DNA of 13,285 bases, from the IMG/VR virus record IMGVR_UViG_2609459822_000007; one strand, 5' to 3'. Positions within the stretch are counted from its first letter, which is position 1. Every line of letters begins with the position of its first letter. The DNA comes from a virus. Lineage: Duplodnaviria; Heunggongvirae; Uroviricota; Caudoviricetes. Position numbers: made by a program. Positions 1 through 3,000 of this stretch are shown in pieces.

Positions 1-3000
1 AGTAATGGCTGGGTGGAAATCGACAACAACATCGCAGAGAACGCCTTACGGGGAGTGGCCGTAGGCCGGAAAAACTGGATGTTCGCGGGTTCCGACAGCG
101 GTGGTGAACATGCGGCGGTGTTGTACTCGCTGATCGGCACATGCCGTCTGAACAATGTGGAGCCAGAAAAGTGGCTGCGTTACGTCATTGAACATATCCA
201 GGACTGGCCGGCAAACCGGGTACGCGATCTGTTGCCCTGGAAAGTTGATCTGAGCTCTCAGTAAATATCAATACGGTTCTGACGAGTCGCTTACCCTAAA
301 GGTGTGCAGCCGATTACAAATTTTGACGCCAACCGCTACCTCGGAAAGTGGTATGAAATAGCTCGCCTCGAGAACCGGTTCGAACGTGGTCTGGAACAGG
401 TCAGCGCTACTTATGGAAAACGGAACGACGGAGGGATTCGTGTACTTAACCGTGGATACGATCCAACGAAAAATAAATGGAGCGAGAGCGAAGGTAAAGC
501 ATACTTTACTGGAGATACTAAAACTGCAGCGTTGAAGGTTTCGTTTTTTGGCCCCTTCTATGGTGGCTATAATGTAATCAAACTGGATGATGAGTATAAG
601 TATGCTCTTGTCAGTGGTCCGAACAGAGAATACCTATGGATTCTGGCAAGGACCCCAACTATTCCAGATAAAGTAAAAGCAGACTATGTGCGAACCGCTC
701 AAAAGTTGGGATTCAATGTCAATGAATTATTATGGGTTAAACAATAAAATCCCTACCCGAAATAATACTTATTAGAAAAAAACCAGCCTTTGGGGAGGCT
801 GGCTAAATCAGGAAACAAGCTGTTATATGATAATAACTACGTTGCGATTCCAACATTTAAAATGTTAGACTAATGAGAATCAGACAGCAACTTTTCCTTT
901 AATTATTTCGAACAATCAGCATCCATCTCCAATCGGAGATCCAACACCATCAGCATACCCTCCACTACGCCCTCAGCTTTCTGGAGCATCCTGCCAACCC
1001 AACAATCAGATCGCCCATGCTTACGTGCAAGCGCCATAAAAGTCATGCCGCCGACATAATAGTCCACCAATAAATCATGCAAATCGCTGTTGTTCTTTTT
1101 CAGACGGGCCATGCACCCGCAAATGATCATCGCGTCATCGTCACAACATTGTGGGCGAGATTTTACTTTTGAAGGAATTAATCCCTTAAAACCGGCGGCA
1201 ATGGACGACCAGGTCACATCTTCATGATTATTAGCCGCCCACGCTCCCCAACGCTCAAGAACCATCTGAATATCACGCATCAACTTACTCCACAAAACTC
1301 AGACCAGAACGCCAATTACAAGCAAAAATCAACAAAACAGTATTAGTTGATTGTTATCTCTGACTTCATACTCCTGCTCCTGTCAGGGTTTTGGCGTAAT
1401 TCTTCAGTATTCGGTAATCGGTCAAAACAGAGCCGGGGAAACGATATAAGCGCAGGCGCATCCAGCGGTGGCGAAGAAGTTCTGCCATATAAAACTCAAA
1501 CATCATTCATCTCCCTGTTCAGTGATGGTCAGTTCCAGCTTTCCACCTTTGATAACAGGCATCTTCACAACGCGGTAATCAACGACCTGAGCATCATCCA
1601 GCCAGAAACCTGCTTTAGTGAGTGCGTCAAAAGCGGCTTTTTGCAGATTATCCAGGTCACGGCTACGGCGATCCGGCATGTGACACTCAATGCGGATTTT
1701 CACAGGCATAGCCAGGCCGATATCCAGCATTGCGTTTTTAATGATTCGGGCGACGTTATCGCGGTATGCCTGCCCCCTCTGCACTGACGTGCGTGCGCCC
1801 GCGATTATGGCGGTAATAGCGATTATTGCTCGGAGGCCAGGGTAATGTGATACTGTAGGTATTCACGCCTTAATAACCCCCTCTTTCAGCCAGATAACCT
1901 GTGTTCTCGCCATACCTTCCAGCGCGCATTCTTTTGCATATGCAGCATCGACAAAATGTGTGCGGCGGTCGATTTCGTCGTGGCAGGCAGAACATGCAAT
2001 GGTGGCAATCAGGTCTGGCGGTTTGATACCGGTACCGCACAATCCAGCCAGCCGGATATGTGCCAGTACAGACGTTTCAGAATTGCCATTACATACGCCA
2101 GGGATTCTTACCTGGCATTCCCGACCACGCGCTGCTTTTCTCAAATCAGCCATGATTCCTCCTTGCTGCCAGTCGCAACCATTTTTTATCAACCAGGCTA
2201 GCGGTATATCCGAGCAGTGTTGGTATTTCGGATGGTTTCAGCTCAGGCCTACGCTTACGACGATTTGATACTCTGTAGATGTGTCCGTTCATGACACGAA
2301 TAAGCGGTGTAGCCATTACGCCTCCTGCTTGTCGCGGAGCAGCTGGAACTCGCAGCTCTGCGGAATAGTCAGGTGGCAGCCAATATTCATCGCCCAGGCT
2401 TCAACCTTACACAGGAAGACATACATCTCTCCGGTATCAAGGTCGGAGGTATGGCGTAACGACTGGATAGTGGTGATATCACCGGTTACGACATCAACCA
2501 GGTCTTTGGTTTCATAACCGAGATATGTGTGTTTGAGAGCATCTTTTACCCAAGCTGGAGTGGCGAACGTTTTACCCCTGCTGATGAGGTATTCACTGAT
2601 TTCGCTGTACCACATGTGGCTGAGTGCATTCTGGGAAAGACTGCGTTTCTCACGCCATATTTCCAGACATCTGTTATCACTTAACCCATTACAAGCCCGC
2701 TGCCGCAGATATTCCCGTGGCGAGCGATGCCGACCGATAGCGGTGAAGTTGCCGCGATGTAATTTGATGCCGTCTTGTGAGAGGTTCACGCTTCACCTCC
2801 GCAGAGGTCAAACGCTAGATGCAAAGAATTGCAGGTGCATTTCTGCATCTGTGAAGGGAGAAGAGAGTTTGGATTGTATGTGCGCATAAACGTCCCCGTT
2901 TAGCGCAGAAGTCACCGGAGTTGTTCAGGCTCCGGTGACATAATTATGCCGTGTTGATTTCCCAAAATCAAAATCGATAGAATTGCTCCTTCTTAAAACA

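What the first reader, a model, noticed from the sequence alone, without database searches (positions are those of the whole stretch)
1..747. IS66-family element end truncating a divergent blc-like lipocalin gene
Lipocalin homology starts exactly at the IS terminus (CGCTTAC at 288-294), removing the signal peptide and lipobox. The lipocalin is only about 60% identical to chromosomal Blc and is convergent with Q, so it looks like an acquired copy that was later inactivated. This marks the region left of Q as rearranged.
Basis: partly seen in the sequence, partly recalled or inferred. Interest (0 to 1): 0.4.

Follow-up and report, generated by a model that had tools for sequence, protein, structure and literature searches.

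The report
Insertion sequence truncating a prophage lipocalin gene
The right end of a common E. coli jumping gene (ISCro1, IS66 family) sits inside a lipocalin gene carried by a lambda-like prophage and has cut off its start, export signal and lipid-anchor site; this is an ordinary gene-killing insertion.

Summary
Bases 1-294 are the last 294 bp of a 2,699-bp ISCro1-type IS66-family element: the TnpC C-terminus with its stop at 262-264, then the terminal repeat ending CGCTTAC at 288-294. From base 295 the sequence is 100% identical to nt 73-525 of an intact 174-aa lipoprotein gene. That gene lies at the same prophage position in about 21% of complete E. coli genomes and in free lambda-like phages. 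The missing 24 codons hold the start codon, the signal peptide and the lipobox cysteine (LIAC, Cys19). The intact protein is 60% identical to K-12 Blc and passes NCBI's Blc model. The gene converges on Q, in the accessory-gene slot between Q and the lysis genes. Phage blc is already described as such an accessory gene ("moron").

The predicted 8-bp duplication CCTAAAGG fits the element: four of six other copies have perfect 8-bp duplications. It cannot be tested here, because the window is an entire draft contig (JHDK01000121.1) that breaks inside the IS. The nearest complete genome, Nord58, has the same IS at a different point in the gene, together with a 4.3-kb deletion. Other strains carry other IS elements throughout this gene. 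Interest is low.

The parts
1..294 (+). Last 294 bp of an ISCro1-type IS66-family insertion sequence. The full element is 2,699 bp; the contig begins inside it.
   Evidence: 100% identical to the 3' ends of full-length copies in Nord58, B1172, Cn5 and other strains. IS matches in other genomes end at base 294.
1..264 (+). C-terminal 87 codons of the transposase TnpC, with the stop codon at 262-264.
   Evidence: Pfam PF03050 E=2.9e-11 and PF13817 E=4.5e-17. NCBIfam NF033517 matches profile positions 323-386 of 387.
269..294 (+). Right terminal inverted repeat. Its reverse complement reads GTAAGCGACTCGTCAGAACCGTATTG.
   Evidence: 17 of 26 positions match the left end GTAACCGGCTCATTTAAACCGTCTGG of the same element in Nord58. 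The left end was confirmed by where flank and IS matches switch.
295..302 (+). CCTAAAGG, the target sequence that would be duplicated at the other IS end if this was a simple insertion.
   Evidence: Independent copies of this element carry perfect 8-bp duplications. For this copy the duplication is inferred, not observed.
295..747 (+). 5'-truncated phage blc-type lipocalin gene: codons 25-174 plus the stop. The start codon, signal peptide and lipobox are missing.
   Evidence: Pfam Lipocalin_2 E=4.3e-44. 100% identical to nt 73-525 of the intact gene WP_000780581.1.
781..804 (-). GC-rich hairpin followed by a T-run on the Q strand. It is a candidate late-operon terminator (tR'-like); this assignment is inferred.
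   Evidence: Terminator scan. The hairpin appears in the RNA fold of 760-900 on the - strand, z = -3.5.
903..1295 (-). Q antiterminator gene, convergent with the lipocalin remnant. The annotated start in relatives gives 125 aa (903-1280).
   Evidence: Pfam Phage_antitermQ E=2.5e-51. Annotated as antiterminator Q in strains 144, Nord58 and 190693.

Best explanation
An ISCro1-type insertion sequence (IS66 family, 2,699 bp, genes tnpA-tnpB-tnpC) has transposed into codon 24/25 of a blc-type outer-membrane lipocalin gene. The gene is an accessory gene ('moron') of a DLP12/lambda-like prophage. It lies on the strand opposite to late transcription, between the Q antiterminator and the lysis genes.

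**Shown**
- The window holds the right IS end joined to lipocalin nt 73.
- The remnant has lost its promoter, ribosome-binding site, ATG, signal peptide and the lipid-modified Cys19.
- No fusion to TnpC is possible, because tnpC stops 30 bp before the IS end.
- The only in-frame start is GTG at 304, with an AAAGG just 1 nt upstream. The gene is therefore a null allele.
- The remnant has no further mutations, so the event is recent.

**Inferred**
- The insertion was a simple transposition that duplicated CCTAAAGG.
- The 5' gene fragment and the rest of the late region lie on another contig of the same draft assembly.
- The 2.7-kb IS now sits between the late promoter/terminator region and the lysis genes. 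It may weaken late-gene expression of the prophage.
For: - IS identity and boundary.
- Element length of 2,699 bp and 8-bp duplications in independent copies (TTTATTTC, CCTTAATG, CCACAGAG, TCACAAAC).
- Intact allele with the lipobox, and the exact breakpoint.
- Blc membership of the intact allele: 60% identity to K-12 Blc; NCBIfam NF007786 scores 316 bits against a cutoff of 267; the best solved structures are Blc 3mbt, 1qwd and 2aco.
- Prophage context nohD-iss-rzpD-rrrD-essD-AraC-YbgA-lipocalin-Q.
- blc is a known accessory gene in lambda-like coliphages: PMC6969025, plus 12 phage records.
- Bases 295-13285 are collinear in one piece with uninterrupted prophages.
- No promoter-like site faces out of the IS end on the + strand in 200-304.
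Against: - The other IS end is not in the window, because the window is a whole 13,285-bp draft contig that begins in the IS. Simple insertion versus an IS-linked deletion is therefore undecided.
- In the closest complete genome that has this IS at this locus (Nord58), the element lacks a target duplication. It replaces 4.3 kb covering iss, the lysis genes, the AraC-type gene, the YbgA gene and the lipocalin 5' part.
- Neither the right junction nor the predicted left junction was found elsewhere.
- The effect on late transcription is inference only.
Confidence: 0.9

Rival explanations
1. The IS marks a deletion or rearrangement rather than a simple insertion. Either the IS caused an adjacent deletion, or two direct ISCro1 copies recombined. 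In that case the lipocalin 5' part, and possibly the YbgA, AraC-type and lysis genes, are gone from this genome, and there is no matching CCTAAAGG at the other end.
For: - Nord58 has the same element in the same orientation at this locus, without a duplication (GTTTTAAT versus GAAGGTAA), and with 4.26 kb removed.
- Strain E1654 has an IS1 in this gene with loss of everything on the Q side.
- Recombination between direct IS66 copies that leaves one copy with unlike flanks is documented (PMC6778807).
Against: Four of six other copies examined have perfect 8-bp duplications, and one more has a 9-bp repeat. Simple insertions are therefore the majority. Nothing in the window itself indicates a deletion.
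Confidence: 0.25
2. The junction is an assembly artefact: a chimeric contig that joins a repeat to a prophage.
For: The contig ends inside a multi-copy repeat.
Against: The switch falls exactly at the last base of the IS terminal repeat. This is what real insertions show and is not expected of a random chimera. Ending in a repeat is normal for short-read contigs.
Confidence: 0.02
3. The remnant is still functional: a leaderless, cytoplasmic 147-aa lipocalin translated from GTG 304 and transcribed by read-out from the IS.
For: An uninterrupted ORF (304-747) remains, and gene callers do call it.
Against: - There is no spaced Shine-Dalgarno sequence; AAAGG ends 1 nt before the GTG.
- There is no promoter-like site on the + strand in 200-304.
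- Blc is an exported, lipid-anchored outer-membrane protein, and the export signal and Cys19 are deleted.
- The same ORF is left by unrelated IS2, IS3 and ISEc23 insertions and by a frameshift. It is a by-product of any disruption at the 5' end.
Confidence: 0.03

Closest known systems
ISCro1 (IS66 family; first named in Citrobacter rodentium, common in E. coli)
   Same: The last 294 bp are identical to 2,699-bp tnpA-tnpB-tnpC elements that PGAP labels 'IS66-like element ISCro1 family'. The ends read GTAA...TTAC and the target duplications are 8 bp. ISCro1 is reported as an expanded IS in C. rodentium (PMC3072379). It is also reported as an IS66-family insertion that alters afa expression in ST131 (PMC8764528).
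   Different: Only the right end is present here. PMC8764528 gives 2,824 bp for its copy, whereas the copies measured here are 2,699 bp. I had no ISfinder reference sequence to compare with.
E. coli chromosomal Blc (b4149), outer-membrane lipoprotein lipocalin; PDB 1QWD, 2ACO, 3MBT
   Same: The intact allele has the same length class (174 versus 177 aa) and 60% identity with no gaps. It has a lipoprotein signal with a lipobox cysteine, and it passes the NCBIfam Blc subfamily cutoff.
   Different: It is carried by a prophage rather than sitting next to ampC. It is 40% diverged. In the window it is truncated and non-functional.
blc accessory gene ('moron') of lambda-like temperate coliphages (Mathieu et al. 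2020, PMC6969025)
   Same: It is the same gene: 95-99% nucleotide identity in 12 phage records, 11 of them annotated 'Lipocalin Blc'. It is described as present in more than 50% of 19 sequenced lambdas.
   Different: Those copies are intact and in viable phages. The window copy is interrupted by an IS.
E. coli Nord58 (NZ_CP139846.1) prophage locus
   Same: Same prophage backbone (99.5% identity), same IS, same orientation, same gene hit. PGAP annotates the gene there as 'lipocalin family protein, incomplete, missing N-terminus'.
   Different: The right junction is 194 bp further into the gene (window position 489/490). The left flank lies upstream of iss, there is no target duplication, and 4.26 kb is deleted.
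nmpC::IS5 in the K-12 DLP12 prophage (from my own knowledge, not tested here)
   Same: An accessory gene in the same slot between Q (quuD) and the lysis genes (essD) of a DLP12-type prophage, inactivated by an insertion sequence.
   Different: A different cargo gene (a porin), a different IS family, and a different part of the gene affected.

Membership tests
IS66 family insertion sequence | DDE transposase TnpC of the IS66 type | tested here: met
   The window fragment hits PF03050 (E=2.9e-11) and PF13817 (E=4.5e-17). It matches NF033517 at 90 bits, below the 180-bit cutoff only because 87 aa are present. The full-length TnpC of the copy with an identical end scores 478 bits.
IS66 family insertion sequence | Three-gene organisation tnpA-tnpB-tnpC (PMC6778807) | not testable with these tools
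   For this copy the contig begins inside tnpC. Full-length copies whose last 294 bp are identical all have tnpA, tnpB and tnpC.
IS66 family insertion sequence | Imperfect terminal inverted repeats beginning 5'-GTAA (Han et al. 2001 and ISfinder, from my own knowledge) | tested here: met
   Right repeat GTAAGCGACTCG... (reverse complement of 269-294) against left repeat GTAACCGGCTCA... in full copies: 17 of 26 positions match.
IS66 family insertion sequence | 8-bp target-site duplication (PMC6778807) | tested here: inconclusive
   The element type meets it: perfect 8-bp duplications in four independent copies and a 9-bp repeat in one. For this copy the left end is off the contig, and the predicted left junction was not found in any collection searched.
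Bacterial lipocalin Blc | Lipocalin_2 domain and the NCBIfam Blc subfamily model | tested here: met
   PF08212 E=4.3e-44 on the remnant. NF007786 scores 316.1 bits against a cutoff of 267 on the intact allele. 60% identity to K-12 Blc.
Bacterial lipocalin Blc | Lipoprotein signal peptide with a lipobox cysteine for outer-membrane anchoring | tested here: not met
   The intact allele has MKLWPVLTGIALSFTLIAC (lipobox LIAC, Cys19). The window copy lacks codons 1-24, so it is a pseudogene of the family and not a functional member.
Bacterial lipocalin Blc | Binding of lysophospholipid or fatty acid | not tested
   No structure prediction or ligand analysis was run. It is irrelevant for a truncated copy.
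Lambdoid prophage accessory gene ('moron') | A non-essential cargo gene at a fixed slot in the phage genome, on its own transcription unit, present in some relatives and absent in others | tested here: met
   It lies between Q and the lysis genes, on the opposite strand. It is present in 1,143 of 5,426 complete E. coli genomes and in 12 phage records. It is described as a moron in PMC6969025.

The most novel reading that the evidence does not exclude
The phage blc gene, and the accessory-gene block between Q and the lysis genes more widely, is a preferred or selected target for insertion sequences. Recurrent independent hits would then reflect selection to disable prophage late transcription or the lipoprotein itself, rather than neutral accumulation.

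I found at least 13 different IS junctions in this 525-bp gene across assemblies:
- ISCro1 twice
- ISEc23
- IS2 twice
- IS3 four times
- another IS3-family element, at the same bond as in the window
- IS1 twice
- ISVsa5
Probability: 0.12. Interest if true: 0.35.

Novelty: already known. Interest (0 to 1): 0.1.

Why it matters
It matters little beyond annotation. The 304-747 ORF should be labelled a pseudogene (lipocalin family, missing N-terminus). The contig end should be read as an assembly break in a repeat. This prophage's Q-to-lysis segment carries a 2.7-kb IS, and possibly a deletion, which bears on whether the prophage can still be induced. The recurrence of IS hits in this accessory gene across strains is a small example of how prophage cargo and late regions decay.

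Tried and rejected
1. **Right junction elsewhere.** I looked for the exact junction in 5,426 complete E. coli genomes, GTDB species representatives and JGI metagenomes. None carry it.

2. **Predicted left junction.** I looked for lipocalin 5' part + CCTAAAGG + GTAACCGGCTC in GTDB representatives, metagenomes and complete E. coli genomes. None carry it. Several BLAST hits ran 10-17 nt into the flank. Inspection of the flanks showed no shared target motif, so I treat these extensions as chance.

3. **Source assembly.** An exact-protein look-up with the 147-aa ORF showed that the window is contig JHDK01000121.1. I had no way to reach the other contigs of that assembly. A paper search for the accession found nothing.

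4. **IS hotspot in the 5' 80 nt.** The cluster seen is an ascertainment effect, because only 5' disruptions leave the 147-aa ORF I searched with. In complete genomes the breaks lie all along the gene. The share of carriers with a non-contiguous locus is 105/1143 for the lipocalin query and 70/1136 for an equal-length control inside the neighbouring YbgA gene. That is a 1.5-fold difference, confounded by clonality, phage mosaicism and chromosomal paralogue hits. It is not convincing.

5. **Same bond hit twice.** Two different IS elements at the same bond (the window and L013) looked striking. With six insertions in about 80 nt, roughly one such near-coincidence is expected.

6. **Structured RNAs.** An Rfam scan of the whole window found nothing.

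7. **Han et al. 2001 (IS679 and the IS66 family).** The paper could not be read. The GTAA-repeat criterion therefore rests on my own knowledge.

Full report
**What is in the sequence**

Bases 1-261 translate without stops into 87 residues that match the C-terminal end of IS66-type transposases. Pfam gives DDE_Tnp_IS66 positions 249-283 of 284 (E=2.9e-11) and the IS66 C-terminal element (E=4.5e-17). NCBIfam NF033517 matches positions 323-386 of 387. The stop codon is at 262-264, and the sequence CGCTTAC occupies 288-294.

A search of bases 1-900 against 5,426 complete E. coli genomes split cleanly at one bond. Uninterrupted lipocalin loci match 295-900 at 100% identity. With a query centred on the junction, matches to IS copies end at base 294 and lipocalin matches begin at base 295. 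The stated boundary is therefore exact.

**The insertion sequence**

The 294 bp are identical to the right end of full-length elements in strains Nord58, B1172, Cn5, DA33133, 94_0962 and F5505-C1. Those elements share these features:
- They are 2,699 bp long.
- They encode tnpA, tnpB and tnpC, and PGAP labels them "IS66-like element ISCro1 family".
- They start GTAACCGGCTCA and end ...GAGTCGCTTAC. This gives imperfect terminal repeats with 17 of 26 positions matching. The left end was confirmed by where flank and IS matches switch.

Target duplications in the six copies examined:

| Copy | Flanking repeat |
|---|---|
| L015 (B1172) | TTTATTTC, perfect 8 bp |
| L017 (DA33133) | CCTTAATG, perfect 8 bp |
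| L018 (94_0962) | CCACAGAG, perfect 8 bp |
| L019 (F5505-C1) | TCACAAAC, perfect 8 bp |
| L016 (Cn5) | CGAATGTCG, 9 bp |
| L002 (Nord58) | none |

Three genes and an 8-bp duplication are the published hallmarks of IS66 (PMC6778807). ISCro1 is a known, expanded IS of Citrobacter rodentium and E. coli (PMC3072379; PMC8764528).

**The lipocalin**

In uninterrupted genomes such as strains 144 and 190693, the gene is 525 nt and encodes the 174-aa protein WP_000780581.1. Its N-terminus is MKLWPVLTGIALSFTLIAC-KAPTP-PKGVQ. This is a lipoprotein signal peptide with lipobox LIAC and Cys19.

Window base 295 is nt 73 of this gene. Codons 1-24 and everything upstream, including the promoter and ribosome-binding site, are therefore absent from the window.

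The intact protein resembles Blc closely:
- It is 104/174 (60%) identical to K-12 Blc with no gaps.
- It exceeds the curated cutoff of NCBI's Blc subfamily model, 316 against 267 bits.
- Its best matches among solved structures are E. coli Blc entries 3mbt, 1qwd and 2aco.

The remnant 295-747 retains the whole Lipocalin_2 domain (E=4.3e-44). The only in-frame start is GTG at 304, with AAAGG ending 1 nt before it. No outward promoter-like site is found in the IS end. tnpC stops 30 bp before the junction, so no fusion protein forms. Without its signal peptide and the acylated cysteine, an outer-membrane lipoprotein cannot reach its place. The copy is a null allele. It carries no other change relative to intact alleles, so the event is recent.

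**Context**

The window is a DLP12/lambda-like prophage. To the right of the junction lie Q (903-1295, - strand; Pfam Phage_antitermQ E=2.5e-51), ylcG, rusA (frameshifted), ybcO, ninE and ybcN. Next comes a ybcM-ybcL-ybcK-emrE cargo block, and then the P and O replication genes and a repressor.

In uninterrupted relatives the order to the left is lipocalin (+), a YbgA/2-thiouracil-desulfurase-like gene (-), an AraC-type regulator (-), essD-rrrD-rzpD (-), iss/bor (+) and nohD (-).

A GC-rich hairpin with a T-run on the Q strand at 804-781 is a plausible late terminator. That assignment is inferred.

The gene is not a curiosity:
- The locus occurs in 1,143 of 5,426 complete E. coli genomes and is contiguous in 1,038 of them.
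- It occurs in 12 sequenced phages, 11 of them annotated "Lipocalin Blc".
- A published survey lists blc among the accessory genes present in more than half of 19 lambda-like coliphages (PMC6969025).

"Acquired copy, later inactivated" is therefore right, with the detail that it was acquired as phage cargo.

**What cannot be seen**

An exact-protein look-up with the 147-aa ORF showed that the window is the whole of contig JHDK01000121.1 (13,285 bp) of draft assembly GCA_000601355.1. The contig begins inside the IS because short-read assemblies break in repeats. The left IS end, the 5' gene fragment and the predicted second copy of CCTAAAGG are therefore out of reach.

Neither the right junction nor the predicted left junction occurs in the complete E. 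coli genomes, the GTDB representatives or the JGI metagenomes. Everything to the right of the junction is collinear in a single piece with uninterrupted prophages at 99.5% identity. The IS is the only demonstrated rearrangement.

**A cautionary relative**

Nord58, the one complete genome with this IS at this locus, has it in the same orientation. Its right junction is at window position 489/490, which is 194 bp deeper in the gene. Its left flank lies just upstream of iss, and the flanks are unlike (GTTTTAAT and GAAGGTAA). Compared with strain 190693, 4.26 kb is missing: iss, the lysis genes, the AraC-type gene, the YbgA gene and the lipocalin 5' part.

That pattern fits an adjacent deletion or recombination between two copies. 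The latter is documented for IS66 (PMC6778807). Five of the six other copies have flanking repeats. On that basis I put a simple insertion at roughly 70% and a deletion at roughly 25% for the window's genome.

**Recurrent disruption**

The same 147-aa ORF is left in other assemblies by unrelated events within the first ~80 nt of the gene:
- two IS2 insertions in opposite orientations
- an IS3 insertion
- an ISEc23 (IS66-family) insertion 16 bp upstream of the window's site
- another IS3-family element at the same bond as in the window
- a 1-bp deletion

That 5' cluster is an ascertainment effect of the query. In complete genomes, all five sampled broken loci are IS-associated, and the breaks are spread along the gene. 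They involve IS1, IS3 at three positions, and ISVsa5. A sixth record, which the search counted as contiguous, carries an IS1A inside the gene.

An equal-length control inside the neighbouring YbgA gene is non-contiguous in 70 of 1,136 carriers, against 105 of 1,143 for the lipocalin query. This 1.5-fold difference is confounded by clonality and phage mosaicism. I do not claim a hotspot.

**Verdict**

This is an ordinary, already-understood kind of event: a common IS66-family element inactivating a known prophage cargo gene. PGAP already annotates the analogous Nord58 remnant as an N-terminally incomplete lipocalin. Interest is low.

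Noticed in passing
window 1-13285: The window is the complete draft contig JHDK01000121.1 (GCA_000601355.1), 13,285 bp. Its left end is an assembly break inside a multi-copy IS, not a biological boundary.
   Followed up: yes
window 1503-1866 (- strand): rusA is split into two overlapping ORFs (1503-1784 and 1756-1866), spanning 364 nt instead of 363. This indicates a 1-nt frameshift. The same gene is annotated 'frameshifted' in Nord58 and strain 190693, so the frameshift predates the IS insertion.
   Followed up: partly
L002 (Nord58) 3596-6294, compared with L004 (strain 190693): The same ISCro1-type element sits in the same orientation in the same gene. It joins 194 bp further in, has no target duplication, and replaces 4.26 kb (iss, rzpD, rrrD, essD, the AraC-type gene, the YbgA gene and the lipocalin 5' part).
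   Followed up: yes
L007, L008, L009, L010/L011, L013, L005 (first ~130 nt of each, or around the gene start): Other assemblies carry IS2 (both orientations), ISEc23, IS3 and another IS3-family end within the first ~80 nt of this lipocalin gene. One carries a 1-bp deletion. The L013 element abuts the same bond as the window's IS (...GATTCA|CCTAAAGG). With six insertions in about 80 nt, one such near-coincidence is expected.
   Followed up: partly
L020-L024 (complete genomes E1654, 53, PS00260.4, TBE6, ET5): All five sampled broken lipocalin loci are IS-associated: IS1 with loss of the Q side, IS3 at three different positions, and ISVsa5 near the 3' end. About 9% of carrier genomes have a non-contiguous locus, against about 6% for the neighbouring YbgA gene.
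   Followed up: partly
L017 (strain DA33133) 2915-5613: A copy of the same ISCro1-type element lies between a CRISPR array and cas2e, where the array leader would be expected. It has a perfect 8-bp duplication, CCTTAATG.
   Followed up: no
window 781-804 (- strand): A nine-pair (5 G-C) hairpin followed by TTTTTTT lies about 100 nt downstream of the Q stop, on the Q strand. It is a candidate late-operon terminator (tR'-like) and may also end lipocalin transcripts coming from the other side.
   Followed up: partly
window 3004-6994: A block homologous to K-12 DLP12 cargo (ybcM, ybcL, ybcK recombinase, ylcJ, emrE) sits between the nin region and the P/O replication genes of this prophage.
   Followed up: no
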